Virus record (IMG/VR): IMGVR_UViG_3300037466_001520
Strand: one strand, 5' to 3'
DNA from: a virus
Lineage: Duplodnaviria; Heunggongvirae; Uroviricota; Caudoviricetes
DNA: 64,000 bases
The notes under the pieces were generated by a model. The model was not told where the DNA came from. It worked only from the letters and a program-made list of their open reading frames with translations, and ran no database searches. Below, one piece after another: positions 6,789 through 36,477 of this stretch (the first letter of the stretch is position 1; each line of letters begins with the position of its first letter). Both the position numbers and the translations under genes were made by a program.

Positions 6789-6818
6789 TTTGACAGTGTG
6801 AATCAAGTCGGATAGAAT
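6789..6818 (+). promoter_or_regulatory. promoter TTGACA-N18-TAGAAT
   Basis: Immediately after the nrdF stop and before hairpin 6831-6865. Confidence 0.45.
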
Positions 6819-6864
6819 TATGAATGTCAAGGGGGTCGACCTTGCTGATACCTCCTTCGGCCCC

Positions 6865-6893
6865 CTTGACACTCCTGATTTTTATGATATACT
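6865..6893 (+). promoter_or_regulatory. promoter CTTGAC-N17-TATACT driving the tRNA-Trp/Pro/Gly cluster
   Basis: 14 nt upstream of tRNA-Trp. Confidence 0.5.
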
Positions 6894-6906: not shown

Positions 6907-6977
6907 AGGTTCAAAGTGTTACGGTAGCACGGTGGTCTCCAAAACCGCAAGCGAAGGTTCGACTCCTTCTGGGCCTG
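6907..6977 (+). tRNA. tRNA-Trp (CCA)
   Basis: Acceptor AGGTTCA/TGGGCCT; anticodon stem GTGGT/ACCGC with loop CTCCAAA; T-arm GAAGG-TTCGACT-CCTTC. Confidence 0.65.
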
Positions 6978-7020
6978 CTTTACAATTTAATATCTTGTGA
7001 TACACTTAGTATCATAATAA

Positions 7021-7095
7021 CGGGGTGTAGCTCAGCTTGGTCAGAGCGCCTGCTTTGGGAGCAGGAAGTCGCACGTTCGAATCGTGTCTCCCCGA
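7021..7095 (+). tRNA. tRNA-Pro (TGG)
   Basis: D-arm GCTCAGCTTGGTCAGAGC; anticodon stem-loop CCTGC-TTTGGGA-GCAGG; T-loop TTCGAAT; acceptor has one mismatch. Confidence 0.7.
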
Positions 7096-7197
7096 CGCTA
7101 GAGAAGTGTTGTTTGCAGTTACTTCATTTGACTCTTAATCAAAAGCGAACTCCCCGTGTTGGGAAATACTGCGAACGCTTTTTCTCTCTAGTTCTTT

Positions 7198-7268
7198 GCG
7201 TCTATGATGTAGTGGTAACATATCAGTCTTCCAAACTGAGTTCGCGGGTTCGAGTCCCGCTAGACGCT
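7198..7268 (+). tRNA. tRNA-Gly (TCC)
   Basis: Acceptor GCGTCTA/TAGACGC is perfect; anticodon loop CTTCCAA; T-arm GCGGG-TTCGAGT-CCCGC. Confidence 0.75.
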
Positions 7269-7397
7269 CTGGTCGCAGATGCGCTCGCTATCCGGTTACT
7301 TCATTCGGCGAAAAATCACCGGACGCGGTTATTTCTCTGCGGCCTTTATCATCCCCGCCCGGGGATGAAGTGACAAACGACGACAGGACAAACAGAC

Positions 7398-8960
7398 ATG
7401 GGTAAGTTCAACACGCCTACTCTCGCGAAGGCCCGCAACGGGTACTCGCCCCTCACAACTTCTTACACTCGCGCCATCAACCACAATGGCGGTGTCGGTG
7501 CGCTCCGTGACCCCAAGTCCGAGCTGTTCCTCACCATCGTCAACGAGTTCGGCGGCGAGAAGCTCTTCCACGAAAACTCGGCTCAGCGTCAGGCACGCCT
7601 CGCGAAGCTCATCCCTGAGGTCGCCGTGGCGGATCCTGCGTGGATCGAGAACCTCGTCGGCTGGCTCCGCAAGGAGTCCAACCTCCGCTCGGCACCGATC
7701 ATCCTCGCGCTGACCGCTGCCAAGGCGCTCAACGACGCCGGGTACGAGGGCGTCCGCAAGATCGTCTCCAACGCGATCCTGCGCGCCGACGAGCCGGGAG
7801 AGGCGCTCGCCTTCTGGTATGCCAACTACGGGCGCAAGCTTCCAATCGGAGTCAAGCGCGGAATCGCTGACGGCGTGGTCCGCACCTACAACGAGTACTC
7901 CCTCGGGAAGTACGACGGCGGAGACAACAAGGGGTTCAGCTTCGCTGACGTCATCAAGCTTGTCCACCCAACGCCCAAGGACGAGCGCCAGTCGGCGCTG
8001 TTCAAGTTCGCGATGGACCGTCGCCACGACTCCTCGGCGAAGCCTGCTGAGATCCTGAGCCAGCTCAACAAGCGCGTGGCGTTCCTTGCCCTCTCTACCT
8101 CGGAGAAGCGCGAGTTCGTCACGGGTCCTGAGGGTGCACAGCGCCTCAAGGACGCGGGGCTCACATGGGAGAACGTCGGATCGACTTCGGGCAAGGGAGG
8201 CCTCGACGCCAAGGCGTGGGAGGCTCTCATCCCGGGGCTCGGATACATGGCGCTCATCCGCAACCTCCGCAACTTCGAGGACGCGGGAGTCTCCGACGAG
8301 ATCCTCGACCTCGTCGCGAAGCGCCTTGCGGACCCGGAGGAGGTTGCACGCTCGCGTCAGCTCCCATTCCGCTTCCTCTCGGCGGCTCGTGCGATCCGCA
8401 GCTACCGCTTCGCGCACCCTCTTGAGCGCGCGCTGGATGCTTCGCTTGCGAATATCCCGTCGCTCAAGGGCCGTACGCTGGTGATGGTCGACCGCTCGCA
8501 GTCGATGGAGTGGTACCGTTCGGAGAACACGCAGATGACATGGGCGGACACCGCTGCCCTGTTCGGAACCGCGCTCTCCATGCGTGCGGAGAGCGCTGAC
8601 CTCGTCGCGTTCGGCTCGACGTCGGAGAAGGTCGACTTCCACAAGAGGGGCTCCGTGCTCAAGACTGTGGAGTCCTTCCAGAACCTCGGCGGGACCGAGA
8701 CCGCTGCGGCCATCGAGCAGCACCTTCGCGGCCACGACCGCGTCGTGCTTCTCACGGACGACCAGCACAACGGACGCTCGCCGTACGACGTGGTCCCTTC
8801 GAACACGCCGATCTACGTCTGGAACTTCGCCGGATACAAGTACGGCGCTGGGGTCTCCGGCCCGAACCGCATCTACATGGGCGGTCTCTCCGACCAGAGC
8901 TTCTCGACGATCCCGCTCATCGAGACGGGGCGCGACTCGAAGTGGCCTTGGGAGTCGTAA
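7398..8960 (+). CDS. Ro60-like (TROVE domain + C-terminal vWA/MIDAS) protein
   Basis: 520 aa; N-terminal TROVE-like region; C-terminal vWA with MIDAS motif DRSQS (TLVMVDRSQSM); followed by Y-RNA-like modules. Confidence 0.7.
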   Translation: MGKFNTPTLAKARNGYSPLTTSYTRAINHNGGVGALRDPKSELFLTIVNEFGGEKLFHENSAQRQARLAKLIPEVAVADPAWIENLVGWLRKESNLRSAPIILALTAAKALNDAGYEGVRKIVSNAILRADEPGEALAFWYANYGRKLPIGVKRGIADGVVRTYNEYSLGKYDGGDNKGFSFADVIKLVHPTPKDERQSALFKFAMDRRHDSSAKPAEILSQLNKRVAFLALSTSEKREFVTGPEGAQRLKDAGLTWENVGSTSGKGGLDAKAWEALIPGLGYMALIRNLRNFEDAGVSDEILDLVAKRLADPEEVARSRQLPFRFLSAARAIRSYRFAHPLERALDASLANIPSLKGRTLVMVDRSQSMEWYRSENTQMTWADTAALFGTALSMRAESADLVAFGSTSEKVDFHKRGSVLKTVESFQNLGGTETAAAIEQHLRGHDRVVLLTDDQHNGRSPYDVVPSNTPIYVWNFAGYKYGAGVSGPNRIYMGGLSDQSFSTIPLIETGRDSKWPWES

Positions 8961-8969
8961 GATACAAAG

Positions 8970-9008
8970 AGTTGACACCAGCTCTGGCTATGCTATACTG
9001 GTGTCAAC
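8970..9008 (+). promoter_or_regulatory. promoter TTGACA-N16-TATACT embedded in an inverted repeat (GTTGACAC...GTGTCAAC)
   Basis: The -35 element is part of the left arm and the -10 lies in the spacer; transcription would run into the YrlA-like/tRNA array. Confidence 0.5.
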
Positions 9009-9030
9009 ACGAAGTTGCTTGATAACTTAA

Positions 9031-9164
9031 CATGACCGAAGCGTAGAGGAAGCTTACTTCTTCTGGTAAAAGAGAGGTTGCGGGTTCGAGTCCCGTCCAG
9101 CCCACGGGTTGGTAGCTCAATCGGCAGAGCGCTATGTTAGCTTCTTCGATCTTTCTCGGTCATG
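9031..9164 (+). ncRNA. YrlA/Y-RNA-like module 1: circularly permuted tRNA-like core closed by a long terminal helix
   Basis: Order: T-arm (GCGGG-TTCGAGT-CCCGT, 9080-9096), then acceptor-like hairpin (CCAGCC/GGTTGG, 9097-9112), then D-arm (GCTC-AATCGGCA-GAGC, 9115-9130). The ends pair: CATGACCGA (9031-9039) with TCGGTCATG (9156-9164), plus a second helix GAGGAAGCT / AGCTTCTTC. Confidence 0.6.
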
Positions 9165-9169
9165 TTATT

Positions 9170-9244
9170 GCCTGCTTAGCTCAGTCCGGCCAGAGCATCT
9201 GTCTTGTAAACAGAGGGTCGTCGGTTCGAATCCGACAGCAGGCT
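9170..9244 (+). tRNA. tRNA-Thr (TGT)
   Basis: Acceptor GCCTGCT/AGCAGGC; anticodon loop CTTGTAA; T-arm GTCGG-TTCGAAT-CCGAC. Confidence 0.8.
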
Positions 9245-9245
9245 C

Positions 9246-9381
9246 GCGTTCAGAAGTGAAGAGATCCGTTACTTCTCCTTCCACGAGACAGGCGCAGGTT
9301 CGATTCCTGCACGCCCTTCCATGGGGCGTTGGTGTAATGGCAGCACGGTTATATACGGAACTCGACTTTTTCTCTGAACAC
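9246..9381 (+). ncRNA. YrlA/Y-RNA-like module 2 (permuted tRNA-like)
   Basis: T-arm GCAGG-TTCGATT-CCTGC (9294-9310); acceptor-like hairpin ACGCCCT-tccat-GGGGCGT (9311-9329, 3' strand followed by TCCA); D-arm GTGTAATGGCAGCAC. End helices GTTCAGA (9248-54) / TCTGAAC (9373-79) and GAG-A-TCCGT / ACGGA-A-CTC. Confidence 0.6.
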
Positions 9382-9384
9382 TCC

Positions 9385-9534
9385 GCTTCACGTGAAGCGT
9401 AGGTGCCGGATACTTCTGGGAGACTGTAGGTCGCAGGTTCGAGTCCTGCCCTCCCGCCTTTTCATGCGGGAGGTAGCTCAGTGGAAAGAGCGACAGTATA
9501 TTTGTTACCGGACCGATTTTTTCTCACGTGATTT
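9385..9534 (+). ncRNA. YrlA/Y-RNA-like module 3 (permuted tRNA-like)
   Basis: T-arm GCAGG-TTCGAGT-CCTGC (9433-49); acceptor-like 7-bp hairpin CCTCCCG-ccttttcatg-CGGGAGG (9450-9473); D-arm GCTC-AGTGGAAA-GAGC. 'Anticodon-stem' equivalent ACTGT (9423-27) / ACAGT (9493-97), then GGT(G)CCGG / CCGGACC, and outer CACGTG (9389-94) / CACGTG (9525-30). Confidence 0.6.
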
Positions 9535-9607
9535 GCCGCTCAAGCTCAGATGGAAGAGCGCCTGATTGAAGCTCAGGAGGCTGTCGGTTCGACCCCGACG
9601 AGTGGCA
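9535..9607 (+). tRNA. tRNA-Phe (GAA)
   Basis: D-arm GCTCAGATGGAAGAGC; anticodon loop TTGAAGC; T-arm GTCGG-TTCGACC-CCGAC. Confidence 0.75.
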
Positions 9608-9612
9608 CGCTT

Positions 9613-9773: not shown

Positions 9774-9899
9774 CAATGCCGAGGAATGGAGTGCGCACTC
9801 CAAGTCCTCCCGTCCGGGGAAGTCCTAGGAACCTTCTCTAGACGGCGCGTGAGTGGAACCACCGCCAGTATGTCGAAGTCTGGGGGCGCGGCATTTTAA

Positions 9900-10072: not shown

Positions 10073-10351
10073 ATGTCGGATCAGACGGTCATCGACCTCT
10101 ACATCAACGATCTCGCGTCCACGACGCACCAACTCTATCAGGAGAAGGGCCTCAACGCAGATCTGACCAAGGAGAACGCAGACCTCAAGTCGGCGGTCGA
10201 GAGCTTGACGCAGAACAACACTGACCTCAAGTTCGAGATCACCACGCTCCAGCAGAAGTACAACGACCTCAAAAGCGGAGCTGGCGACACTCCTATCGAG
10301 GGACAGGTTGTCCAGCCTGCCACGCCGCCTACTCCGTCATCTCACTTCTAG
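10073..10351 (+). CDS. hypothetical coiled-coil protein
   Basis: 92-aa ORF with RBS AGGAG; terminator hairpin CCCCGCAAGGGG downstream. Confidence 0.5.
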   Translation: MSDQTVIDLYINDLASTTHQLYQEKGLNADLTKENADLKSAVESLTQNNTDLKFEITTLQQKYNDLKSGAGDTPIEGQVVQPATPPTPSSHF

Positions 10352-10451: not shown

Positions 10452-10519
10452 GCAGGCCCGTCACGCACTAACCATGCTAGGCAGTCGGAGTGGTTATCCG
10501 GCTAGCGGGAAGCTCATTT

Positions 10520-10605
10520 GGCTAGTAACCCTGCCCGGTGGTAGGCCACGCTTGGAAAGCGTGTGGCAGGCGAAGGTCTGTGAGGTTCGATTCCTCTGCT
10601 AGCCG
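10520..10605 (+). tRNA. tRNA-Ser (GGA), class II
   Basis: Anticodon stem-loop CACGC-TTGGAAA-GCGTG; long variable arm; T-loop TTCGATT; acceptor GGCTAGT/GCTAGCC. Confidence 0.7.
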
Positions 10606-10696: not shown

Positions 10697-10749
10697 CAGG
10701 GCCGGTGCATGTTGATCCGAGTGCAGCCGGAGCCGAAGTCCGGCAGGCC

Positions 10750-10835
10750 ACCGGGCAATCGGATTTATGGAAGTTGTTCTCGTCAGGTGACGAGCGCCGT
10801 TTCGAAAGCGGCTGATACTCGAAAGGGTATGGGGT
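10750..10835 (+). tRNA. tRNA-Ser (CGA), class II
   Basis: D-arm CTCG-TCAGGTGA-CGAG; anticodon stem-loop GCCGT-TTCGAAA-GCGGC; long variable arm; T-loop TTCGATA; acceptor pairing imperfect. Confidence 0.55.
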
Positions 10836-10901
10836 TCGATACCTCCTGCTTCCGCGTTAGGCCTCAGGGCTCGCCGAAAGGACCCCTGAGGTCGAATGAT
10901 T

Positions 10902-10969
10902 GGACGGGGCGCTGGGCGCAGTCGAGTCTTACACACTCTTCGCGCAGGGTTCGATCCCCTGACCGTCCA
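10902..10969 (+). tRNA. tRNA-Val (TAC), atypical (short D-loop, mismatches)
   Basis: T-arm CAGGG-TTCGATC-CCCTG; anticodon loop CTTACAC; acceptor GGACGGG/ACCGTCC with 7:66 mismatch. Confidence 0.45.
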
Positions 10970-10970
10970 C

Positions 10971-11102: not shown

Positions 11103-11789
11103 ATGGAACCACGCCTACTTAACTGGTCCCCTCGTCACGATCACCGATCCAAGAACTTCGCAATCGCGGACATCGTCCCATCGGACGTCCGGAAGAATGT
11201 TCTCTGGGGCACAGGCCCCATCCTCGATCAGGGCAAGGAAGGCGCTTGTGTCGGCTTCGGCTGGACAGCACAGCTCCTCTCCACTCCGGAGCCCGTCAAC
11301 CTCGCTCTCACGGCAGCAGCGGTCCCTCACGACCCCACACAGTTCGCCCTGAGCCTCTACCACACCGCCCAGACGCTCGACGACCAGCCCGGGGAGAACT
11401 ACTCCGGAACCTCGGTCCTCGCAGGAGCCAAGGCCGTCACCAACCTCGGATTCCTCAAAGAGTATCACTGGGCGTTCAACGTCGACGACGTCATCAACGC
11501 GCTCATCCACGTCGGCCCTGTCGTCCTTGGAATCGAGTGGCACGAGGGCATGTATGAGGCCCCTGCCGGTCAGCTCACGGTCTCCGGGCCTGTCGTCGGA
11601 GGCCACTGCATCACCGCTGTCGGCTACCGAGATGCGGCATCGTCGATCTCGGGCAAGGAGGCCATCATCCTCCAGAACTCGTGGGGACGTGACTGGGGAA
11701 TGGGCGGACTCGGCCAGATCACCAAGGACGATCTCGCCTCGCTCCTCGCCAACGGAGGAGAGGCCTGCGTCCCGACAAAGCGCGGCTAG
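11103..11789 (+). CDS. papain-like (C1) cysteine peptidase
   Basis: QGKEGACVGFGW resembles the QGxCGSCW Cys motif and GGHCITAVGY the His motif; 228 aa. Confidence 0.6.
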   Translation: MEPRLLNWSPRHDHRSKNFAIADIVPSDVRKNVLWGTGPILDQGKEGACVGFGWTAQLLSTPEPVNLALTAAAVPHDPTQFALSLYHTAQTLDDQPGENYSGTSVLAGAKAVTNLGFLKEYHWAFNVDDVINALIHVGPVVLGIEWHEGMYEAPAGQLTVSGPVVGGHCITAVGYRDAASSISGKEAIILQNSWGRDWGMGGLGQITKDDLASLLANGGEACVPTKRG

Positions 11790-13282: not shown

Positions 13283-13363
13283 GCCGGTATCCTAGTGGTC
13301 TAGGGGCGAGTCTGTAAAACTCGTGTCATTGCGACAATGTGGGATCGTAACCCTCTGCCGGTA
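13283..13363 (+). pseudogene. tRNA-Tyr(GTA)-like element with non-pairing acceptor ends and atypical T-loop (ATCGTAA); probable pseudo-tRNA
   Basis: D-arm CTAG-TGGT-CTAG; anticodon stem-loop CGAGT-CTGTAAA-ACTCG; long variable arm; both ends carry the direct repeat GCCGGTA instead of complementary strands. Confidence 0.35.
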
Positions 13364-20973: not shown

Positions 20974-23142
20974 ATGATCATCGAAGCCGAGACCACCGAA
21001 GTAGTCACAAACATCCCTGAGGGCCGGACGAAGCCCATGTTCATCAGCCAAGAGGGTCTGGCGCACATCATGTCGACGCTGACCAACCTCTACCACGACC
21101 CGGAGCTGGCTGTCATCCGCGAGATCACCGCCAACGCCATCGACTCGCACATCGCCTCAGGCCAGACCCGCAAGATCGAGATCTCGCTCCCAGACCGGTA
21201 CACGAACCAGTTCATCGTCGAAGACTGGGGAGTCGGCATGTCCTACGAGGATCTGGACAACCTCTGCCGGGGCTACGGCGAGTCCACCAAGCGCAAGCGG
21301 AACGACCAGATCGGCGCGTTCGGCCTCGGCTTCAAGTCCCCGCTCGCCATCGCGAACTCCTTCACCGTGCGCGGCATCAAGGACGGACGCCTCACGACTG
21401 TCATCATCGCGAAGTCCGCTGACGGCCTCAACAACGTCACCACTGTCGCCAAACAGGACACCGACCTGCCCAACGGCGTCAAGGTCTCCATCCCGGTCCC
21501 CGCCGACAAGCGCATCAGCTTCAACGAGAAGGCCAAGCGATTCTTCCGCTTCTCCGAGCCCAGCCTGCTCTCCGTCGACGGCGTGGAGCCGACGAGCGTC
21601 TACACCTCGGCCCGCAAGGTGACCGACCCCGACAACCCGGACTTCGTCGCATACATCGGCGACGAGACCATGAACGAGTCCGTCGTGGTCATGGGCGGTG
21701 TGCCCTACGCGATGACCTACTCCGAGATGTGCGATTCTCTGGAGCGTCAGGGCCTCACGGCTGGGTCCGCCTTCTACCGGCTCCCCAAGATCTTCCCTAT
21801 CGGCATCGGCGAGGTCGAGCTGACCCCGAACCGCGAGGGGCTCCGCTACACGGACAAGACCATCGAAGTTGTGGACCGCCTGCTCGCCGGATTCCTCCGG
21901 GGCTACACCAAGTCCGCTCAGGAGGCCATCGACGCCATCGACGAGCGCTCGGAGGTCTACGACGAGATCCGCACGTGGGCCGAGAAGCTCGACATCCCGG
22001 CCAAGGACATCCAGTGGCGCGGCGAGGACGTCGTGCGCGAGATCCGTCTGGAGAAGCCCGTCGCGACCGTCCGCCCCAATGTCGGGTGGACGTCCCGCAA
22101 CGAGCACGCGACCCGCTACTCCATCGAACTCGACCGCAAGATCCCGGTCCTGATCATCACCGGGCGCGGCACCGACAAGTACCGCCGAGTCGCCACCTAC
22201 ATCAACGACTACATGGCGCTCAAGAACCACCGCTACCGCGATCTGACCTTCACCTTCGTCGAAGAGCTGACCGAGGAGATGAAGACCCCGTGGCTCATCG
22301 AGAACTCCAACTTCTCCTTCATCGACGCCGAGGCCTTCATGGCAGAGGTCAAGGAGTACCGCAAGTCTCTCAAGCCCGAGAAGGAACCGGCTGAGAAGAA
22401 GGAGCGGGTGAAGATCACCTACCCGGTCTTCGACATCGAGAACAACGCTCTCACCTACGCCGAGCCCAAGGACATCCCGGAGGACGCCTACCTCGTCCGA
22501 CCCGAGGACTTCACCTCGACGACCGCCGAGATCGTCCGGATCTTCGAGGCACCGAGCGGCTGGGGCAAGATGCTCAAGGAGGACCGCAAGGAGATCTGCG
22601 AGGCGTTCGCCGAGGCGATGCCGAACGTCAAGCACCTCGTCTTCCTCAGCTCCACGCGCAAGCTGGAGACGCTGGAGCGCAAGTCCAAGATGACCTTCCC
22701 GGCCCTCGCCGACCTCGCCCCGACGTTCCTCGACGAGATCGAGACAGCGATGGAGGACGCCGACCTCCACCACTACCGCTACTGCAAGAAGATGGCCGAG
22801 TACGACTTCTTCTACGGCCTCGCGGAGGAGGACGGCATCCTCGACCCGCAGTTTGCACAGCTCCGCGCGGACGAGTCCCTCGCACCCAAGGCAGAGCGGC
22901 TGGAGCGCTTCCTCAAGGCCTACAACACGCTTCGTCGTCCCGGAGACCGGTTTGCCCCGGACAACGCGGGACGCAAGCCGGAGTCCATCGAGTTCGACGA
23001 TGACGAGATCCGCAACAGGTACATCCTCATGCGGAGCATGGGCCTCCACAGCAGGAAGAACGACGCGACATTCCGGGAGCACCTGATCTCCTACATGAAC
23101 ACTGTGTACTCGTCGACCCTTGTCGAGTCCGAAGATAACTGA
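20974..23142 (+). CDS. GHKL-superfamily ATPase (HSP90/MutL/TopoVI-like Bergerat fold)
   Basis: N box REITANAIDS, G1 box VEDWGVGMS, G2 box GAFGLGFKS; 722 aa; RBS AAAGGAAAAACG. Confidence 0.7.
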   Translation: MIIEAETTEVVTNIPEGRTKPMFISQEGLAHIMSTLTNLYHDPELAVIREITANAIDSHIASGQTRKIEISLPDRYTNQFIVEDWGVGMSYEDLDNLCRGYGESTKRKRNDQIGAFGLGFKSPLAIANSFTVRGIKDGRLTTVIIAKSADGLNNVTTVAKQDTDLPNGVKVSIPVPADKRISFNEKAKRFFRFSEPSLLSVDGVEPTSVYTSARKVTDPDNPDFVAYIGDETMNESVVVMGGVPYAMTYSEMCDSLERQGLTAGSAFYRLPKIFPIGIGEVELTPNREGLRYTDKTIEVVDRLLAGFLRGYTKSAQEAIDAIDERSEVYDEIRTWAEKLDIPAKDIQWRGEDVVREIRLEKPVATVRPNVGWTSRNEHATRYSIELDRKIPVLIITGRGTDKYRRVATYINDYMALKNHRYRDLTFTFVEELTEEMKTPWLIENSNFSFIDAEAFMAEVKEYRKSLKPEKEPAEKKERVKITYPVFDIENNALTYAEPKDIPEDAYLVRPEDFTSTTAEIVRIFEAPSGWGKMLKEDRKEICEAFAEAMPNVKHLVFLSSTRKLETLERKSKMTFPALADLAPTFLDEIETAMEDADLHHYRYCKKMAEYDFFYGLAEEDGILDPQFAQLRADESLAPKAERLERFLKAYNTLRRPGDRFAPDNAGRKPESIEFDDDEIRNRYILMRSMGLHSRKNDATFREHLISYMNTVYSSTLVESEDN

Positions 23143-23182
23143 TACAGTTTCAAGAACCAACACCAGACAGGAGAAAACCACT

Positions 23183-24328
23183 ATGACCATGTACCACTCG
23201 ATCATCGGGCGGACTCCGGGACGCACGCTCTCCGTCACCTATTCTGACGGAGACATCGCGACGGTCCCGGAGAGCCACGAATCCTTCGAACAGCTCCTCA
23301 ACCTCATCAACTCCGGCGCGGAGGAGGACGAGGTCCGCAACCTCATCGACATCATCCTCGGCGCAGGGAAGCGCCTGACCCAGCTCTCCGAGCGCGTGTC
23401 CTTCAAGGGCCGCACGCTGTTCTTCGACGGCGACCCCATCGACGGCGCGCTCGTGGATACGATCATCGAACTGGTCGCTGCGGGCACGGACGACGAGAAG
23501 CTCCACTCCGTCGTGAACTTCCTTGAGAAGGTCAAGACGAACCCGAACATCACGACCATCGACGGCCTCTACAAGTGGATCACCAACGGCGACCTCGTCA
23601 TCCACCCAGACGGAGACTTCATCGCCTACAAGGGTTGCCAAGGAAAGGGTGACCAGCGTACGTCGCAGTCCTTCGGCACGGCATTCGTCGACGGCGAGGA
23701 GATCACCGGCTACATCCCCAACCCGGATGGCGCTGTCGTCTCCATGCCTCGCTCAACCGTCGACGACGGCAGCTACAACATGTGCTCGACGGGCCTCCAC
23801 ATCGCCACCCACGGCTTCGCGCAAGGCTTCGCCCACGGCGAGGTCATCCTCGTCAAGGTCAACCCTCGCGACGTCGTCTCGGTTCCATCCGACGAGAGCT
23901 TCAAGAAGCTGCGCGTGTGCCGCTACAAGGTGCTGCACGCCGTTGCCGGTCGCCTCGACGGTCGCGTCTACGTTCAGCCCGAGCTGGAGCCGGAGACAGA
24001 GGACCAGACCCCTGAGGAGTTCAAAGCAGCAGCCGAGGAGGTCATCGACGAGGAGACGTGGAACGCGGCTCACGACGCTGTCGGAGACACACCGTTCACC
24101 GTCACCCCGGCTGACGAGGACAATGACGAGGAGATCGCCGAGATCGAGGATCTGCTCAAGCCGGTCCACGAGTACGGCACGGTTGACGCTGAGGAGCCCG
24201 AGAAGGCCCCTGAGGAGCCACAGGAGCCTCTCAGGGAGTCTAACGGGCGCTTCACGAAGGCTGGTGCTGCCCATGAGGCGAAAGCCGCTCTGAGGGACGC
24301 TCTGGGGCGTTTCATCAAGAACAAGTAA
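23183..24328 (+). CDS. hypothetical protein (381 aa, acidic C-terminus), GHKL-ATPase partner
   Basis: ATG after AGGAGAAAA; the track start 23120 would overlap the upstream gene. Confidence 0.55.
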   Translation: MTMYHSIIGRTPGRTLSVTYSDGDIATVPESHESFEQLLNLINSGAEEDEVRNLIDIILGAGKRLTQLSERVSFKGRTLFFDGDPIDGALVDTIIELVAAGTDDEKLHSVVNFLEKVKTNPNITTIDGLYKWITNGDLVIHPDGDFIAYKGCQGKGDQRTSQSFGTAFVDGEEITGYIPNPDGAVVSMPRSTVDDGSYNMCSTGLHIATHGFAQGFAHGEVILVKVNPRDVVSVPSDESFKKLRVCRYKVLHAVAGRLDGRVYVQPELEPETEDQTPEEFKAAAEEVIDEETWNAAHDAVGDTPFTVTPADEDNDEEIAEIEDLLKPVHEYGTVDAEEPEKAPEEPQEPLRESNGRFTKAGAAHEAKAALRDALGRFIKNK

Positions 24329-33049: not shown

Positions 33050-34003
33050 ATGACAACGACATTCGACGAAAACACAAGGACAAAACAACTGGTCCTCCTC
33101 CGAGGACTCCCCGGTTCCGGCAAGTCGACCTTCGCCCGAGCTTGGGTGGACGAGGACCCCGACTTCCGCGTTCGCGTGAACCGCGACGACATCCGCTTCG
33201 CGCTCTTCGGCAAGTACTGGGACCTCTCCCAGCATCAGGAAGAGACGGTCTCGACCATCGAGCACGCGACCTCCACGGCTGCGCTCAAGTCCGGTCTCTC
33301 CGTCATCATCGACGCGACCAACTTCAAGGCCTCGGGCAACAAGGACTGGATCTCGGCAGCGGACCGGCACAAGGCCGAGTTCGTGGTCGTCGACATCGAG
33401 ACGCCGGTCGAGGAGTGCATCCGACGAGACCGGGAGCGTATCTCCCGTCAGGTCGGCGAGCAGGTCATCCGCGACTTCGCCAAGCGCTACCTCCAGAAGG
33501 GCAAGTTCCCGCCAAAGCCTGTGAAGATGGAGCAGAAGATCGCAGAGGTGGGCGCTCCCTACGAGCACACCGAGGGACTGCCCTTCGTCTGGCTCTTCGA
33601 CGTCGACGGCACACTTGCCCGGATGCAGGGCCGCTCACCGTTCGCATGGCACCGCGTCGGCGAGGACACCGTGATCGAGGACGTCGCCCGCGTGGCGCGC
33701 ATCCTCTCGGAGACGTACCCGATCATCATCTTCTCGGGGCGCGACGAGGTGTGCAAGCCCGAAACGTCCGATTGGCTGCGCGAGGTGGCGAACGTGGACT
33801 TCAAGGAGATCCACATGCGCCCCACCTCGACGAACGGGGTCGACCTTCCTGACGACGTCGTGAAGCTGGATCTGTTCGAGCAGCACATCCGAGGCAAGTA
33901 CAACGTCGCCGGAGTGTTCGACGACCGCCTGCGTGTGTGCCGCGCTTGGGAGAACCTCGGCCTGACGCTGTTCCGAGTCGGACCGCTCGACTCGGCCTTC
34001 TAG
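33050..34003 (+). CDS. polynucleotide kinase-phosphatase (T4 Pnkp-like)
   Basis: P-loop LLRGLPGSGKST (kinase) plus HAD phosphatase motif VWLFDVDGTLA. Confidence 0.75.
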   Translation: MTTTFDENTRTKQLVLLRGLPGSGKSTFARAWVDEDPDFRVRVNRDDIRFALFGKYWDLSQHQEETVSTIEHATSTAALKSGLSVIIDATNFKASGNKDWISAADRHKAEFVVVDIETPVEECIRRDRERISRQVGEQVIRDFAKRYLQKGKFPPKPVKMEQKIAEVGAPYEHTEGLPFVWLFDVDGTLARMQGRSPFAWHRVGEDTVIEDVARVARILSETYPIIIFSGRDEVCKPETSDWLREVANVDFKEIHMRPTSTNGVDLPDDVVKLDLFEQHIRGKYNVAGVFDDRLRVCRAWENLGLTLFRVGPLDSAF

Positions 34004-34005
34004 TG

Positions 34006-34036
34006 TAAGCCCCGGGCGAAACCCCGGGGCTTACGC
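34006..34036 (+). terminator. hairpin GTAAGCCCCGGG-cgaaa-CCCCGGGGCTTAC
   Basis: After the Pnkp gene. Confidence 0.45.
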
Positions 34037-34088
34037 TTCACCTCGACACTTTCAAAGATATAATGAGTCAACACCCTAGGAGGCTCTC

Positions 34089-34364
34089 ATGACCACTGCC
34101 ACGCTCGCTCCTCAGCTTCCCTGCGAGATCGTCGACTTCGACGTCGAGGGAACGGAGCCCGTCAAGCTCGACACGACGTTCCGCTGCGACCGATGCCCTG
34201 CGCAGGCGTACGTGCTCGTCACCCTCACCTCCGGGGGCCAGCTCACATTCTGCATGCACCACGCCAACCAGCACCGCGAGGCGCTCCTGCCGATCTCCTC
34301 GGAGTGGTACTCGGAGACCTCGCGCCTGTTCAACGAGAACAAGAAGAAAGGATCGGAGAACTGA
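34089..34364 (+). CDS. hypothetical zinc-finger protein
   Basis: CxxC ... CxH pattern (FRCDRCPAQ ... FCMHHANQH). Confidence 0.5.
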   Translation: MTTATLAPQLPCEIVDFDVEGTEPVKLDTTFRCDRCPAQAYVLVTLTSGGQLTFCMHHANQHREALLPISSEWYSETSRLFNENKKKGSEN

Positions 34365-35095
34365 TGACGACTCTGTCTACTCACGACGTCCGAGCCTACC
34401 TCGTCGGAGGCGCGGTGCGCGATAGGATCCGGGGGATTCCTTCTCACGACTGGGACTTCGCGGTCGAGGCTCGGGACTACGACCACATGGACCGCTGGAT
34501 CCAAGACCTCGGGTTCCGCGTGTTCGTGCGGACCCCGAAGACCTTCACCATCCGCGCCCGCTGCGAGGACTCCGTCAGCTTCGCCGGGATCCAGATGGAG
34601 CACCAGACGTACGACTTCGTCCTCTGCCGCAAGGACGGCGTCTACACAGACGGTCGCCGACCCGACTCGGTCACGGCTGGGACTCTCTACGACGACCTCG
34701 CGCGCCGGGACTTCACGTGCAACGCCATCGCCCTCGCAGAGGACGGGACGTACGTCGACCCGCACAATGGGCAGAAGGCCATCGAGGAGAAGGTTCTTCG
34801 GCTCGTGGGTGGCCGCGAGCGGCTCGTCGAGGACGGCCTAAGGGTGATCCGCGCGCTGCGCTTCTACGTGACCACCGGGTTCACCTTCGACGCCAAGCTG
34901 AGGGTTGCTCTTCGCTCCGACGAGGCGGCGGAGGCGCTGAGCAAGGTCTCTGCGAACCGCATCCGCGACGAGCTGAACAAGATGCTCAAGCACAGCCTGT
35001 TCGATTCCATCGACGTGCTCGCGGAGTTCCCCGACGTCATCGAGATCATCGAGGACAAGGGCGTCTGGCTCAAGGCCACGAGCGAAACGCGCTGA
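34364..35095 (+). CDS. tRNA nucleotidyltransferase (CCA-adding enzyme) / poly(A) polymerase head domain
   Basis: YLVGGAVRDRIRG ... DWDFAV head-domain motif; TGATG overlap with upstream gene. Confidence 0.7.
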   Translation: MTTLSTHDVRAYLVGGAVRDRIRGIPSHDWDFAVEARDYDHMDRWIQDLGFRVFVRTPKTFTIRARCEDSVSFAGIQMEHQTYDFVLCRKDGVYTDGRRPDSVTAGTLYDDLARRDFTCNAIALAEDGTYVDPHNGQKAIEEKVLRLVGGRERLVEDGLRVIRALRFYVTTGFTFDAKLRVALRSDEAAEALSKVSANRIRDELNKMLKHSLFDSIDVLAEFPDVIEIIEDKGVWLKATSETR

Positions 35096-35160
35096 CATTG
35101 GACACTGCGTAAGGTAGAATGTAGGTAGGGCTGATGCCCGCCTAGAGTAAGTGAATAGCG

Positions 35161-36441
35161 ATGACCACTACTTTCGTTCTTGACTCCAGCGTTCTGCTCT
35201 CCGCTGGGAAGAAGGCACTGTATTCGTTCGGTGAGAATGACGTGGTCATTCCATTCACCGTGGTCAAGGAGATCGAGTCCAAGAGGAGCGATCCCGAGAC
35301 CGGCTACCCCGCACGTTCCGTGCTGCGAGCCCTCGACGAGATGAACGACGCCGGAGACCTCAAGGTCGGCGTCCCCCTCGGCGAGGGCTTCGGCACGCTC
35401 AGGGTCGAGGCCAACCACATCGGCGAGACCCCCGACCTCCTGCGCAGCTACCCATCGAACGACACCCGCATCGCGACGGTCGCCTTCAATCTCAAGCTCG
35501 ACGACCCGAACGTCGTGCTCGTCACCAAGGATCTCACGCTCCGCATCGTCGCATCGCTCGTCGACGTCCCGACTCAGGGCTTCGGCGTTGGTGACTTCTC
35601 CACCGAGCACATCGACAAGGTCGAGACCGCGTGGATCGACTCCGAGGTCATCGACCAGATCCACGGCACCGGAGGTGCTCGCCTCAACCTCGACGTTCCG
35701 CTGAACGTGCCGCTGGAGCTTCGCTCGTTCACCGAGCCGAAGAAGACCGCCCTAGTGCTCGCCCAGAAGGAGTACATCTTCCGCAAGGTCGAGGCCCCGA
35801 AGATCTCCGGGCTTGAGTCCCACAGCCGCGAGCAGGCCTTCGCCATCGACTACCTCACGGACGAGGACGTGCAGATCGTCTCTCTCGGAGGCCGCGCCGG
35901 AACCGGCAAGACCACACTGGCCCTCGCAGCAGGCGTCGAGCAGCTCGACAAGCCCTTCAAGAAGATCATCGTCTTCCGCTCCATGCACTCGGTCGGAGGC
36001 GAGGAGCTGGGCTTCCTCCCGGGCACCGAGCAGGAGAAGCTGGACCCGTGGACCAAGGCCATCTTCGACTCACTGGAGAGCTTCCTGACCAAGGGCCAGA
36101 TCGACAAGCTCAAGCGCGAGCAGCGCATCGAAGTCCTGCCGATCACGCACGTTCGCGGACGCACCTTCTCGAACGCCTTCATCGTCATCGACGAGGCCCA
36201 GAACCTCGAACGCGCCACCATCATGACGCTCCTGTCCCGTCTCGGACACAACTCCAAGGCCGTGCTATCGTGGGACGTCTCGCAGCGCGACAACTTCCGC
36301 GTGGGCCGCTTCGACGGCATCTATGAGGTCGTCCGCCGACTCCTCGGCGAAGAGCTGTTCGGGCACGTCTCGCTGCACAAGTCGGAGCGCTCCGCAGTGG
36401 CCGAGCTGGTGTCGCGAAAGCTGGACGACTTCGACAACTGA
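35161..36441 (+). CDS. PIN-domain / PhoH-like ATPase (YlaK-like)
   Basis: N-terminal PIN (FVLDSSVLL ... D); Walker A GRAGTGKTT; VIDEAQN. Confidence 0.8.
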   Translation: MTTTFVLDSSVLLSAGKKALYSFGENDVVIPFTVVKEIESKRSDPETGYPARSVLRALDEMNDAGDLKVGVPLGEGFGTLRVEANHIGETPDLLRSYPSNDTRIATVAFNLKLDDPNVVLVTKDLTLRIVASLVDVPTQGFGVGDFSTEHIDKVETAWIDSEVIDQIHGTGGARLNLDVPLNVPLELRSFTEPKKTALVLAQKEYIFRKVEAPKISGLESHSREQAFAIDYLTDEDVQIVSLGGRAGTGKTTLALAAGVEQLDKPFKKIIVFRSMHSVGGEELGFLPGTEQEKLDPWTKAIFDSLESFLTKGQIDKLKREQRIEVLPITHVRGRTFSNAFIVIDEAQNLERATIMTLLSRLGHNSKAVLSWDVSQRDNFRVGRFDGIYEVVRRLLGEELFGHVSLHKSERSAVAELVSRKLDDFDN

Positions 36442-36477
36442 TTTGTCCGACCCGGGACCCAGTGTTAGCATACACAC

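What the first reader, a model, noticed from the sequence alone, without database searches (positions are those of the whole stretch)
7398..8960. Phage-encoded Ro60 (TROVE + vWA/MIDAS) ortholog
The 520-aa protein has the two-domain organisation of Ro60/Rsr: an N-terminal TROVE-like region and a C-terminal von Willebrand A domain with an intact MIDAS DxSxS (DRSQS). In bacteria Ro60 works with exoribonucleases and Y RNAs in structured-RNA decay. A phage copy next to its own Y-RNA-like genes implies manipulation of host RNA quality control or rRNA/tRNA turnover during infection.
Basis: partly seen in the sequence, partly recalled or inferred. Interest (0 to 1): 0.55.

Follow-up and report, generated by a model that had tools for sequence, protein, structure and literature searches.

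The report
Phage Ro60 protein with Y RNAs
This gene encodes a phage copy of Ro60, a ring-shaped RNA-binding protein, and five small Y-RNA-like genes sit around it among the phage's tRNA genes; phage Ro60/Y RNA pairs are already known, so this is a well-supported but ordinary new example.

Summary
Window 7398-8960 (+) is a real 520-aa gene. Pfam TROVE scores above its threshold. A family profile matches every solved Ro60: Thermus phage phiLo, Xenopus, human and Deinococcus Rsr. The AlphaFold model (pLDDT 86) has only Ro60 structures as its top 13 PDB matches, with TM 0.74-0.77 to Xenopus Ro60.

The MIDAS residues D365, S367, S369, T433 and D454 are invariant in 54 relatives. Four of them align with the Ca2+ ligands in the phiLo crystal structure. 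H190 aligns with Xenopus H187.

The window is a tailed actinophage, syntenic with Arthrobacter phage Atuin. Atuin's ortholog (52% identity) is already annotated "Ro-like RNA binding protein". Actinobacterial genomes carry 45-51% identical homologs with YrlA-like RNAs just upstream.

Five Y-RNA-like genes flank the gene, each within 0-8 nt of a tRNA or another Y element. They share a covarying two-stem core with conserved loop motifs, and three carry a YrlA-type tRNA-like module.

The most likely mechanism is a Ro60/Y RNA particle that engages a host exoribonuclease such as PNPase. The direction of the effect and its benefit to the phage are untested. This is a new member of a known kind and of low to moderate interest.

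The parts
7398..8960 (+). Ro60 (TROVE + vWA) coding sequence, 520 aa, about 57 kDa, pI about 9.1
   Evidence: ORF. Pfam TROVE 72 bits. PHROG 850. Matches to PDB Ro60 entries. AF2 model plus Foldseek.
7398..8459 (+). HEAT-repeat / TROVE ring (residues 1-354). The C-terminal helices 498-520 (nt 8889-8957) rejoin the ring. It contains K153, R154, K171, K187 and H190.
   Evidence: Helical repeats in the model. Alignment to phiLo Ro60, Xenopus Ro60 and D. radiodurans Rsr. K153, R154 and H190 are invariant.
8460..8888 (+). von Willebrand A domain (residues about 355-497) with a complete MIDAS: D365-x-S367-x-S369 (nt 8490-8504), T433 (8694-8696), D454 (8757-8759)
   Evidence: Alternating strands and helices in the model. 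Integrin I-domain fold matches. All MIDAS residues are invariant. Four align with the phiLo Ca2+ ligands.
7097..7192 (+). Y-like RNA 'Ya' (96 nt, no tRNA-like module), between tRNA-Pro and tRNA-Gly
   Evidence: Composite motif: stem, GAAGUG, UUACUUC, UUUCUC, stem. Cognate stem-2 duplex -11.4 kcal/mol. Gaps of 0 and 5 nt to the neighbouring tRNAs. A counterpart sits at the same position in Atuin.
7271..7344 (+). Y-like RNA 'Yb' (74 nt minimal form), 1 nt after tRNA-Gly and 53 nt upstream of the Ro60 start
   Evidence: Same motif set. Fold z-score -2.9. Conserved minimal copies occur in Atuin and L008.
9028..9167 (+). YrlA-like RNA 'Y1' (140 nt): 10-bp closing stem, conserved internal loop, 8-bp second stem, then a T-arm / acceptor-like stem / D-arm module
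   Evidence: Rfam YrlA 40 bits, E 3e-6, below the gathering score of 69. Fold z-score -4.6. Motif and stem analysis. Ends 2 nt before tRNA-Thr.
9248..9379 (+). YrlA-like RNA 'Y2' (132 nt) with a T-arm, a stem and a tRNA-Gln-like D-arm
   Evidence: Motif set. Sequence read. Counterpart in Atuin at L001 8900-9043. The Rfam YrlA model does not detect it.
9388..9531 (+). YrlA-like RNA 'Y3' (144 nt) with a full tRNA-like module, ending 3 nt before tRNA-Phe
   Evidence: Rfam YrlA 36.2 bits over the whole model, E 3.7e-5. Motif set.
8972..8999 (+). Consensus sigma-70-type promoter (TTGACA, 16 nt, TATACT; TG-extended) between the Ro60 stop and Y1, inside an 11-bp inverted repeat (8971-8981 / 8998-9008)
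   Evidence: Promoter scan gives 11/12 matches. Sequence read.
6790..6893 (+). Two consensus promoters (6790-6818, 6866-6893) ahead of the tRNA-Trp / tRNA-Pro / Ya / tRNA-Gly / Yb / Ro60 run
   Evidence: Promoter scan found 10 sites against 2.1 expected.
6907..7269 (+). tRNA-Trp, tRNA-Pro and tRNA-Gly genes interleaved with Ya
   Evidence: ARAGORN and Rfam.
9170..9608 (+). tRNA-Thr (9170-9245) and tRNA-Phe (9535-9608), bracketing Y2 and Y3
   Evidence: ARAGORN and Rfam.

Best explanation
The gene encodes a functional phage Ro60 (Rsr-type) protein: a ring of HEAT-like helices closed by a vWA domain with a metal-binding MIDAS site. It most likely assembles with the five phage-encoded Y RNAs around it. 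These RNAs appear to be transcribed from consensus promoters together with the phage tRNAs and released by the tRNA-processing enzymes, because every Y element lies within 0-8 nt of a tRNA or another Y element. The conserved stem / internal-loop / stem core (5' GAWGYG..WUACUUC, 3' UUUCUC) is the probable Ro60 docking site on the outer face of the ring. The variable distal modules, three of them tRNA-like, would engage a second host factor, most probably the exoribonuclease PNPase, as shown for Deinococcus, Salmonella and Thermus phage phiLo. The particle would then redirect or restrain structured-RNA decay and RNA quality control in the infected cell. Shown here: the protein family, fold and metal site, the Y RNA architecture with covariation, and their conservation together. 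Inferred: physical binding, processing by RNase P/Z, the PNPase partner, and the direction of the effect.
For: Protein: Pfam TROVE 72 bits. PHROG 850 E 3.9e-43. Profile A1 against PDB gives phiLo Ro60 1.8e-51, Xenopus Ro60 9e-15, human Ro60 3e-13 and D. radiodurans Rsr 1e-12. The AF2 model has pLDDT 85.9 and pTM 0.84. The 13 best Foldseek PDB matches are all Ro60, with TM up to 0.77. The MIDAS residues are invariant. H190, which is invariant, aligns with Xenopus H187, and the H187S mutant loses Y RNA binding (PMC11277228). K153 and R154, both invariant, align with phiLo K141 and K142, whose mutation weakens Yrl2 binding.

RNAs: the five elements are the only + strand WTACTTC sites in 64 kb. 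Y1 and Y3 match Rfam YrlA at 40 and 36 bits, within the 35-58 bit range seen upstream of chromosomal actinobacterial homologs. Across 46 elements from 14 loci, the second stem pairs far better with its own partner strand than with the partner of another element: mean -8.7 vs -3.2 kcal/mol, 0 of 20000 permutations as good, and the cognate partner ranks first in 26 of 46. YTACTTC is about 42-fold enriched in the 700 nt upstream of 80 actinobacterial homologs and present in 73 of the 80. 37 of 46 elements lie within 10 nt of a tRNA or another Y element.

Precedent: YrlA RNAs lie next to Ro60 in more than 250 bacteria and phages (PMC4201824). phiLo Ro60 binds Yrl1 and Yrl2 and forms ternary complexes with host PNPase (PMC12135203).
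Against: There is no experiment on this protein or these RNAs. The YrlA matches are below Rfam's gathering score (40 and 36 bits vs 69), and Y2, Ya and Yb are not detected by that model at all. No PNPase or other exoribonuclease was found in the window ORFs scanned, and the host is unknown, so the partner is a guess. In vitro, phiLo Ro60/Yrl attenuated PNPase rather than stimulating it, so even the sign of the effect on decay is open. Five of the eight phiLo RNA-contact residues are not conserved at the aligned position; for example phiLo R137 aligns with P149. The covariation test selected elements by requiring a closing stem, so only the second stem counts as independent evidence.
Confidence: 0.6

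Rival explanations
1. Counter-defence by sequestration. The Ro60/Y RNA particle exists mainly to titrate or block a host factor, such as PNPase (needed for type III crRNA maturation) or a nuclease-type defence system. On this reading its purpose is immune evasion, not RNA quality control.
For: phiLo Ro60/Yrl complexes attenuate host PNPase in vitro, and the authors propose interference with CRISPR surveillance (PMC12135203). Deleting the Ro60-like gp130 of coliphage Bas63, which also sits next to a tRNA array, sensitises the phage to the Ppl defence system (bioRxiv 10.1101/2024.10.10.617714). The protein and RNA features shown here fit this reading equally well.
Against: Nothing in the window points to a specific defence target. 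The same protein/RNA pair is widespread in actinobacterial chromosomes, where a housekeeping or stress RNA role is the established one. The Bas63 mechanism is only proposed.
Confidence: 0.22
2. The module services the phage's own tRNA supply. Ro60 would act as a quality-control chaperone for the 28 or more phage tRNAs. Alternatively, the tRNA-like Y RNAs would act as decoys for host tRNA-targeting nucleases or tRNA-modifying enzymes, working alongside the phage's polynucleotide kinase, CCA-adding enzyme and RlaP-type nucleotidyltransferase.
For: The gene and all five Y RNAs are embedded in the tRNA array, and this arrangement is conserved in Atuin and other relatives. The window also encodes Pnkp, a tRNA nucleotidyltransferase, a PIN-PhoH protein and RlaP at 33050-37149. 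YrlA RNAs are substrates of tRNA-recognising enzymes (PMC4201824). Comparative genomics describes ROT/TROVE proteins as RNA-repair platforms in jumbo phages (PMC7824862).
Against: The repair genes lie 24 kb away and are not in the same cluster. No RNA ligase was found beside Pnkp. Co-location with tRNAs may only reflect shared promoters and processing. No published case shows Ro60 acting on phage tRNAs.
Confidence: 0.13
3. The protein is a generic vWA/MIDAS protein or a decaying relic with no RNA role, and the neighbouring elements are tRNA pseudogenes or spacer hairpins.
For: The Pfam vWA models and the Rfam YrlA model are all below their thresholds. The Pfam TROVE hit covers only residues 255-335.
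Against: The full-length fold matches Ro60. 76 columns are invariant across 54 homologs, including the MIDAS residues and H190. GC3 is 0.85 and the reading frame is intact. The RNA elements keep a covarying two-stem core plus conserved loops across phages and bacteria. Their T-arm-before-D-arm order is that of YrlA, not of tRNA.
Confidence: 0.03

Closest known systems
Arthrobacter phage Atuin gp111, 'Ro-like RNA binding protein' (OK040794.2), and the other SEA-PHAGES actinophage entries with that annotation
   Same: 52.5% identity over the full length. The synteny is the same: NrdE, NrdF, tRNA-Trp/Pro/Gly, Ro60, tRNA-Thr, tRNA-Phe/Gln, then endolysin. The same Y-like elements occupy the same intergenic slots.
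   Different: There is no nucleotide-level similarity apart from one tRNA. Atuin has six Y-like elements and the window five. The Y RNAs are not annotated in the Atuin record.
Thermus phage phiLo Ro60 with Yrl1/Yrl2 (PDB 9KOP, 9L5Y; PMC12135203)
   Same: It is the best solved-structure match by sequence (E 4e-25 for the single sequence, 1.8e-51 for the profile; 24% identity). Both are phage-encoded and have a HEAT ring with an inserted vWA domain. The four Ca2+ ligands are conserved. Y-like RNAs with a 5'-3' stem and an internal loop are encoded next to the gene.
   Different: phiLo has two Y RNAs upstream that lack a tRNA-like module and carry a CGAA motif. Here there are five RNAs on both sides of the gene, with GAWGYG / UACUUC / UUUCUC motifs, and three have tRNA-like modules. 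Only three of the eight phiLo RNA-contact residues are conserved as basic residues at the aligned position (K153, R154, K187). The model superposes better on Xenopus Ro60 (TM 0.77) than on phiLo Ro60 (0.62).
Actinobacterial Rsr with YrlA RNAs (e.g. Mycobacterium smegmatis, Gordonia, Streptosporangium; Chen et al. 2014, PMC4201824)
   Same: Homologs in Streptomyces, Nocardiopsis, Actinomadura, Nocardioides and others are 45-54% identical. They have 1-4 YrlA-like RNAs directly upstream on the same strand, and these share the YUACUUC motif.
   Different: The cellular loci put the Y RNAs upstream only and are usually not inside tRNA arrays. The window protein clusters with six other viral sequences in a phage-only subgroup at 56-58% identity. 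The strict phage 5' motif is present in only 3 of 80 bacterial loci.
Deinococcus radiodurans Rsr / Y RNA / PNPase (RYPER) and the Salmonella Rsr-YrlA-YrlB system
   Same: Same protein family (profile E 1e-12 to 2NVO). Same logic of a Y RNA tethering Ro60 to an exoribonuclease. The window has both YrlA-type (tRNA-like) and YrlB-type (short) RNAs next to the gene.
   Different: About 18% identity. The protein scores 31 bits against NCBIfam's Rsr equivalog model, whose cut-off is 900. There is no adjacent rtcBA operon, and the PNPase partner is not demonstrated here.
Vertebrate Ro60 (Xenopus 1YVP/1YVR/2I91; human 9NEN)
   Same: The overall doughnut fold has TM 0.74-0.77. K170 and H187 align with K171 and H190. 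The MIDAS motif is present.
   Different: 13-14% identity. The vertebrate Y RNA helix motif (GGUCCGA) is absent, and no La partner is expected.
Coliphage Bas63 gp130 (Ro60-like, counters the Ppl defence system; bioRxiv 10.1101/2024.10.10.617714)
   Same: It is a phage Ro60-like gene placed directly beside a tRNA array. It is the only phage Ro60 with an in vivo phenotype among the papers read here.
   Different: Bas63 is a coliphage, and no sequence comparison with it was made here. Its mechanism is only proposed.

Membership tests
Ro60 / TROVE family (Pfam PF05731) | TROVE domain match above Pfam's gathering score | tested here: met
   72 bits against a cut-off of 23, E 7.3e-20. Only residues 255-335 are aligned.
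Ro60 / TROVE family | Ring of HEAT-like helical repeats closed by an inserted vWA domain (doughnut fold) | tested here: met
   The AF2 model has pLDDT 85.9 and pTM 0.84. Foldseek ranks 1-13 are all Ro60 structures, with E 4e-18 to 6e-12 and TM 0.57-0.77 over about 500-560 alignment columns.
Ro60 / TROVE family | vWA domain with the MIDAS motif DxSxS...T...D | tested here: met
   D365, S367, S369, T433 and D454 are all invariant in 54 homologs. D365, S367, T433 and D454 align with the phiLo Ca2+ ligands D322, S324, T391 and D416. Pfam VWA_2 (23.6 vs 27) and vWA_Ro60 (17.3 vs 27.7) are just below threshold. Integrin I-domain fold matches have probability 1.0.
Ro60 / TROVE family | Conserved Y-RNA-binding surface residues | tested here: inconclusive
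   H190 aligns with Xenopus H187, K171 with K170, K153/R154 with phiLo K141/K142, and K187 with phiLo R173. Five of the eight phiLo contact residues are not conserved at the aligned position. The comparison rests on sequence alignment, not on a superposed complex.
Ro60 / TROVE family | Y RNA gene(s) encoded beside the protein gene | tested here: met
   Five elements lie within 310 nt upstream and 575 nt downstream on the same strand. The same motifs occur beside homologs in phages and Actinobacteria.
Ro60 / TROVE family | Physical binding of Y RNA and of misfolded RNA in the central cavity | not testable with these tools
   This needs EMSA, CLIP or co-purification.
NCBIfam NF041674 'RNA-binding protein Rsr' (equivalog) | Whole-protein score of at least 900 bits | tested here: not met
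   31.4 bits. Atuin gp111 scores 38.7, a chromosomal Amycolatopsis homolog 27.8, and a Nocardioides homolog has no hit. The model is narrow and excludes the whole actinobacterial clade, so this is not a phage-specific failure.
Rfam RF02553 YrlA (Y RNA-like) | Covariance-model score at or above the gathering score (69 bits) | tested here: not met
   Y1 scores 40.0 bits (model positions 24-84, the T / acceptor-like / D module). Y3 scores 36.2 bits (positions 1-114). Y2, Ya and Yb have no hit. Candidates beside actinobacterial homologs also reach only 35-58 bits.
Rfam RF02553 YrlA (Y RNA-like) | Terminal 5'-3' stem with a conserved motif, plus a tRNA-like module in the order T-arm, stem, D-arm | tested here: met
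   The alignments show the T-arm GCGGGUUCGAGUCCCG, a stem, and the D-arm UAGCUCAAUCGGCAGAGC. The closing stems and the second stem covary. The 5' motif GAAGCG is a variant of the published GNCGAA(N)G.
RYPER-type Ro60 / Y RNA / PNPase complex | Y RNA bridges Ro60 to PNPase | not testable with these tools
   No PNPase gene was found in the window ORFs scanned. The host genome is unknown.

The most novel reading that the evidence does not exclude
In this phage lineage Ro60 and a set of five to seven paralogous Y RNAs form an integral part of the tRNA operon. They would be co-transcribed and cut out by RNase P/Z. They would work as a tRNA-mimic decoy or PNPase-capture device that protects the phage's own tRNA supply and transcripts from host RNA-targeting defences. 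That would make the pair a dedicated anti-defence module and not a borrowed housekeeping factor.
Probability: 0.15. Interest if true: 0.6.

Novelty: new member of a known kind. Interest (0 to 1): 0.27.

Why it matters
Ro60 is the Sjogren's/lupus autoantigen, and its bacterial relatives specialise exoribonucleases for structured-RNA decay. Phage copies have been known since 2003. One was solved in 2025 and another was linked to counter-defence in 2024, yet no infection-level mechanism exists. This locus adds a clean, well-conserved example from a roughly 150-190 kb actinophage lineage that has cultured relatives (Atuin on Arthrobacter globiformis). The number and packing of the Y RNAs inside the tRNA array offer a tractable system for three questions: how phage Y RNAs are made, what they tether Ro60 to, and whether the module serves RNA quality control or immune evasion. 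A practical point also follows. The Y RNA genes are not annotated in the related GenBank records, and the simple signature GAWGYG...WUACUUC...UUUCUM would find them.

Tried and rejected
- **Nucleotide search.** Megablast of 7000-9600 against phage records found only a tRNA-Pro match, so no close sequenced phage exists. Protein-level search was needed.
- **Rfam at gathering thresholds.** It found only tRNAs in the window and in 38 related loci. YrlA appears only in E-value mode.
- **NCBIfam Rsr equivalog.** The protein fails it. I did not treat this as evidence against membership, because chromosomal actinobacterial homologs fail it too.
- **GAAGYG pairing with UACUUC.** I considered a hairpin or pseudoknot between these two conserved motifs and rejected it. 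In the GAUGCG variants the UACUUC motif does not change to compensate, so both look like conserved unpaired or recognition elements.
- **Residue assignment from memory.** I first recalled K170/R174 as the Y-RNA-binding residues and H187 as the cavity residue. The review I could read says H187S loses Y RNA binding, so I used that. The primary papers (Stein 2005, the Sim 2020 review) are not held.
- **Partner genes in the window.** I looked for PNPase, RtcB or an RNA ligase among about 35 ORFs scanned and found none.
- **Technical failures.** An NJ tree in Biopython timed out and was replaced by average-linkage clustering on identities. The second Atuin locus (L005) never appeared on the script machine, so window-to-Atuin mapping beyond 100 kb relied on Pfam/PHROG scans instead.
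Full report
**1. The observation**

Window 7398-8960 (+) is an uninterrupted ATG-to-TAA ORF of 520 codons. Its third-position GC is 0.85 (first and second positions 0.62 and 0.46), and an AGGA lies 11-14 nt before the ATG. The longer ORF on the opposite strand (7329-8978, 549 aa) has GC3 0.61 and is the usual high-GC shadow frame. DRSQS is at residues 365-369. The exact protein is on record from JGI and Logan metagenome contigs of up to 153 kb. In an alignment of 54 homologs at 50-73% identity, the first residues M1, K3 and N5 are invariant, so the start is right.

**2. What the protein is**

- **Family searches.** Pfam TROVE scores 72 bits against a cut-off of 23, but aligns only residues 255-335. 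The two relevant vWA models are just under threshold: VWA_2 23.6 vs 27, vWA_Ro60 17.3 vs 27.7. PHROG 850 'RNA-binding protein' covers residues 25-506 with E 3.9e-43.
- **Solved structures, by sequence.** The single sequence hits the Ro60 of Thermus phage phiLo (9KOP/9L5Y) with E 4e-25 over both halves. A profile of the 54 homologs hits phiLo Ro60 (1.8e-51), Xenopus Ro60 (9e-15), human Ro60 (3e-13) and Deinococcus radiodurans Rsr (1e-12, covering positions 24-467). Nothing else scores below E 0.08.
- **Predicted fold.** The AlphaFold2 model built on that alignment has mean pLDDT 85.9 and pTM 0.84. It shows an all-helical N-terminal 350 residues and an alternating strand/helix C-terminal domain. 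The thirteen best Foldseek matches in the PDB are all Ro60 structures (E 4e-18 to 6e-12; TM 0.74-0.77 to Xenopus Ro60, about 0.6 to phiLo Ro60 and Rsr). Integrin and von Willebrand A domains follow, matching the C-terminal part only.

**3. Functional residues**

The MIDAS residues D365, S367, S369, T433 and D454 are invariant in all 54 sequences. In the pairwise alignment to phiLo Ro60, D365, S367, T433 and D454 sit opposite D322, S324, T391 and D416. The crystal structure shows those four residues coordinating Ca2+ (PMC12135203).

In the profile alignment to Xenopus Ro60, the segment MAVTK170YKQR174NGWSHKDLLRLSH187 aligns with YSLGK171YDGGDNK178GFSFADVIKLVH190. H190 is invariant and K171 is at least 90% conserved. 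The H187S mutant is reported to lose Y RNA binding (PMC11277228).

Of the eight phiLo residues whose mutation weakened Yrl2 binding, K141 and K142 align with the invariant K153 and R154, and R173 aligns with K187. The other five are not conserved at the aligned position. The RNA-binding surface is therefore plausibly retained, but not proven.

**4. Genomic setting**

The window is part of a large tailed phage of Actinobacteria.

- It encodes NrdE/NrdF just upstream, a Sak4-like annealing protein, SSB, MazG, an endolysin, rIIA/rIIB, a glycosyltransferase, helicases, a primase and a terminase large subunit.
- ARAGORN tRNA genes, and Rfam adds one more tRNA-like hit at its gathering threshold.
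- The best GenBank phage match to the protein is Arthrobacter phage Atuin gp111 (52.5% identity, full length), annotated 'Ro-like RNA binding protein'.
- Gene order is the same in both phages: NrdE, NrdF, tRNA-Trp, tRNA-Pro, tRNA-Gly, Ro60, tRNA-Thr, tRNA-Phe, tRNA-Gln, then the endolysin.
- There is no nucleotide-level similarity beyond one tRNA.
- In all, 106 phage records hold a homolog. They include Streptomyces and Gordonia phages, crAss-like Bacteroides phages, and Caulobacter, Xanthomonas, Rhizobium and Vibrio phages.
- IMG/VR contains at least 259 viral contigs encoding relatives.

**5. Relation to cellular Ro60**

A scan of one genome per species found at least 361 hits. The best 80 are all Actinomycetota (Streptomyces, Nocardiopsis, Actinomadura, Nonomuraea, Amycolatopsis, Nocardia, Nocardioides and others), at 43-53% identity over the whole protein. 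In an identity clustering of 162 sequences, the window protein groups first with Atuin and five IMG/VR contigs, a phage-only group at 56-58%. It then joins a mixed viral and bacterial cluster at about 50%. Some 'bacterial' loci are evidently prophages or phage contigs, for example those with long tRNA arrays upstream.

All ten bacterial loci scanned in E-value mode carry YrlA-like matches (35-58 bits, E 1.6e-10 to 6e-4) directly upstream of the homolog on the same strand. Nearly every one of the 80 loci has one to four T-arm-like GGTTCRANTCC motifs there. This is the arrangement described for actinobacterial Rsr/YrlA loci and mycobacteriophages by Chen et al. 2014 (PMC4201824).

The protein fails NCBIfam's Rsr equivalog model (31 bits vs 900). 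So do Atuin gp111 and chromosomal Amycolatopsis and Nocardioides homologs. That model is simply narrower than the family.

**6. The Y RNAs**

Five elements on the gene's strand share one architecture:

| Element | Coordinates | Length | tRNA-like module |
|---|---|---|---|
| Ya | 7097-7192 | 96 nt | no |
| Yb | 7271-7344 | 74 nt | no |
| Y1 | 9028-9167 | 140 nt | yes |
| Y2 | 9248-9379 | 132 nt | yes |
| Y3 | 9388-9531 | 144 nt | yes |

- **Shared core.** Each has a closing 5'-3' stem of 5-10 bp and an internal loop with GAWGYG on the 5' side and (U)UUUCUC on the 3' side. A second stem follows, then a conserved WUACUUC at the junction, then a variable distal part.
- **Motif specificity.** The five WTACTTC sites in these elements are the only ones on the + strand of the 64-kb window.
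- **tRNA-like modules.** In Y1, Y2 and Y3 the distal part is a T-arm, an acceptor-like stem and a D-arm in that order. This is the circularly permuted tRNA mimic that defines YrlA.
- **Rfam scores.** YrlA aligns to Y1 (40 bits, E 3e-6) and Y3 (36.2 bits, E 3.7e-5). Both are below its gathering score of 69 but within the range of the cellular actinobacterial candidates. Y2 has a tRNA-Gln-like D-arm and is missed by the model. Ya and Yb are short forms comparable to YrlB.
- **Thermodynamic support** is moderate: z-scores run from -1.6 to -4.6.

The comparative evidence is stronger. The composite motif occurs only on the Ro60 strand. It recurs at the equivalent positions in Atuin and in 12 IMG/VR loci, giving 46 distinct elements in 14 loci including the window.

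The second stem was not used to select the elements, so it is an independent test. Its 5' strand pairs far better with its own 3' partner than with the partner of any other element: mean duplex energy -8.7 vs -3.2 kcal/mol. None of 20000 permutations reached this value, and the cognate partner is the best of 46 in 26 cases.

Cellular loci share the junction motif. YTACTTC occurs in the 700 nt upstream of 73 of 80 actinobacterial homologs, at 2.29 per kb against 0.054 per kb elsewhere (example read).

**7. Expression and processing (inferred)**

Near-perfect sigma-70-type promoters lie at 6790, 6866, 8972 and 12971. The scan found ten sites against 2.1 expected. The one at 8972-8999 sits between the Ro60 stop and Y1.

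Every Y element in the window begins or ends 0-8 nt from a tRNA gene or from another Y element. Across the related loci, 37 of 46 elements lie within 10 nt of a tRNA or another Y element, and 25 of those abut a tRNA directly.

The simplest reading is that Y RNAs, tRNAs and the Ro60 mRNA come from common transcripts. On that reading, RNase P and the tRNA 3'-end machinery define the Y RNA ends. This has not been shown.

**8. Mechanism**

What is established elsewhere:

- Y RNA tethers Rsr to PNPase in Deinococcus and Salmonella, specialising it for structured RNA (summarised in PMC4201824).
- phiLo Ro60 binds two phage Y RNAs with nanomolar affinity through a stem / bulge / stem with a CGAA motif. 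It forms ternary complexes with host PNPase and slows that enzyme in vitro (PMC12135203).
- Bas63 gp130 is a Ro60-like gene beside a tRNA array, and it is needed to overcome the Ppl defence system (bioRxiv 10.1101/2024.10.10.617714).

By homology, I commit to a Ro60/Y RNA particle that engages a host exoribonuclease and reshapes RNA decay or quality control during infection. My confidence levels are:

- about 0.95 that this is a Ro60-family protein;
- about 0.8 that it binds the flanking RNAs;
- about 0.4 that PNPase is the partner.

Two rivals differ mainly in purpose and cannot be separated by sequence. One is counter-defence by sequestration. The other is servicing of the phage tRNA pool, alongside the Pnkp, CCA-adding enzyme, PIN-PhoH protein and RlaP encoded at 33050-37149.

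**9. Novelty and verdict**

Phage Ro60 genes were noted in mycobacteriophages in 2003 and paired with YrlA RNAs in 2014. 'Ro-like RNA binding protein' already appears as the product name in actinophage GenBank records such as Atuin. A phage Ro60 was structurally and biochemically characterised in 2025.

This locus is a new, divergent member of that known kind. The modestly new points are descriptive. There are five paralogous Y RNAs on both sides of the gene, packed tightly among tRNAs. They share a core signature (GAWGYG / WUACUUC / UUUCUM) found in actinophage and, in part, actinobacterial Y RNAs, and these RNAs are unannotated in the related GenBank records. Interest is low to moderate.

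Noticed in passing
window 10519-10605, 10769-10853, 13283-13363: These are tRNA-like genes that ARAGORN did not call. 10519-10605 scores 51 bits on the Rfam tRNA-Sec model and is probably a long-arm tRNA-Ser(gga), as in Atuin. 10769-10853 scores 43 bits, below threshold. 13283-13363 scores 28.1 bits on the tRNA model, at the position where Atuin has tRNA-Tyr.
   Followed up: no
window 8971-9008: An 11-bp perfect inverted repeat (GTTGACACCAG...CTGGTGTCAAC) begins 11 nt after the Ro60 stop codon. It overlaps both hexamers of the consensus promoter at 8972-8999. It could act as an mRNA 3' hairpin, an operator, or both.
   Followed up: partly
window 33050-37149: A run of RNA-repair-type genes: polynucleotide kinase/phosphatase (33050-34003), tRNA nucleotidyltransferase (34193-35095), a PIN-PhoH fusion (35161-36441) and an RlaP-family nucleotidyltransferase (36478-37149). 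Atuin has an RNA ligase (gp173) two genes upstream of its Pnkp (gp175). No RNA ligase was found next to Pnkp here.
   Followed up: partly
window 20974-24328: Homologs of T4 rIIA (722 aa) and rIIB (402 aa) in an actinophage. The Atuin counterparts are annotated only as hypothetical proteins.
   Followed up: no
window 9775-9899, 10698-10768, 10854-10970: Intergenic stretches of 70-125 nt inside the tRNA array match no tRNA, no Y-like motif and no Rfam family. They may hold further small RNAs or processing spacers.
   Followed up: no
window 11103-11789 and 10073-10351: Two protein genes are embedded in the tRNA array: a papain-like (C1) peptidase homolog (PHROG 16701) and a 92-aa protein rich in heptad-like repeats.
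   Followed up: no
window 7350-7368: A GC-rich hairpin (ATCCCC-GCCC-GGGGAT) lies between Yb and the Ro60 ribosome-binding site and has no U tract. It may be a processing or stability element for the Ro60 mRNA.
   Followed up: no
L018 2399-2923; L020, L023, L028, L068 (IMG/VR contigs of about 45-113 kb): A second phage lineage, whose Ro60 is about 45% identical to the window protein, carries three or four tandem Y-like RNAs directly upstream of Ro60. The 5' motif is fixed as GAUGCG and the 3' motif as UUUCUA, and short and tRNA-like forms alternate.
   Followed up: partly
L123 2010-2460 (Actinomadura sp. 7K507) and 73 of 80 actinobacterial loci: Chromosomal or prophage Ro60 homologs have up to three tandem YrlA-like RNAs upstream. 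These share GGYUACUUC and a GUGCGCAGG-type 5' motif. None reaches Rfam's YrlA gathering score, which suggests the Rfam model under-detects actinobacterial Y RNAs.
   Followed up: partly
L109 and L146 (Asanoa spp. genome contigs): These 'bacterial' loci have dense tRNA arrays upstream of the Ro60 homolog: 16 Rfam tRNA hits in L109, and 12 T-arm motifs in L146. They are probably prophages or co-assembled phage genomes.
   Followed up: no
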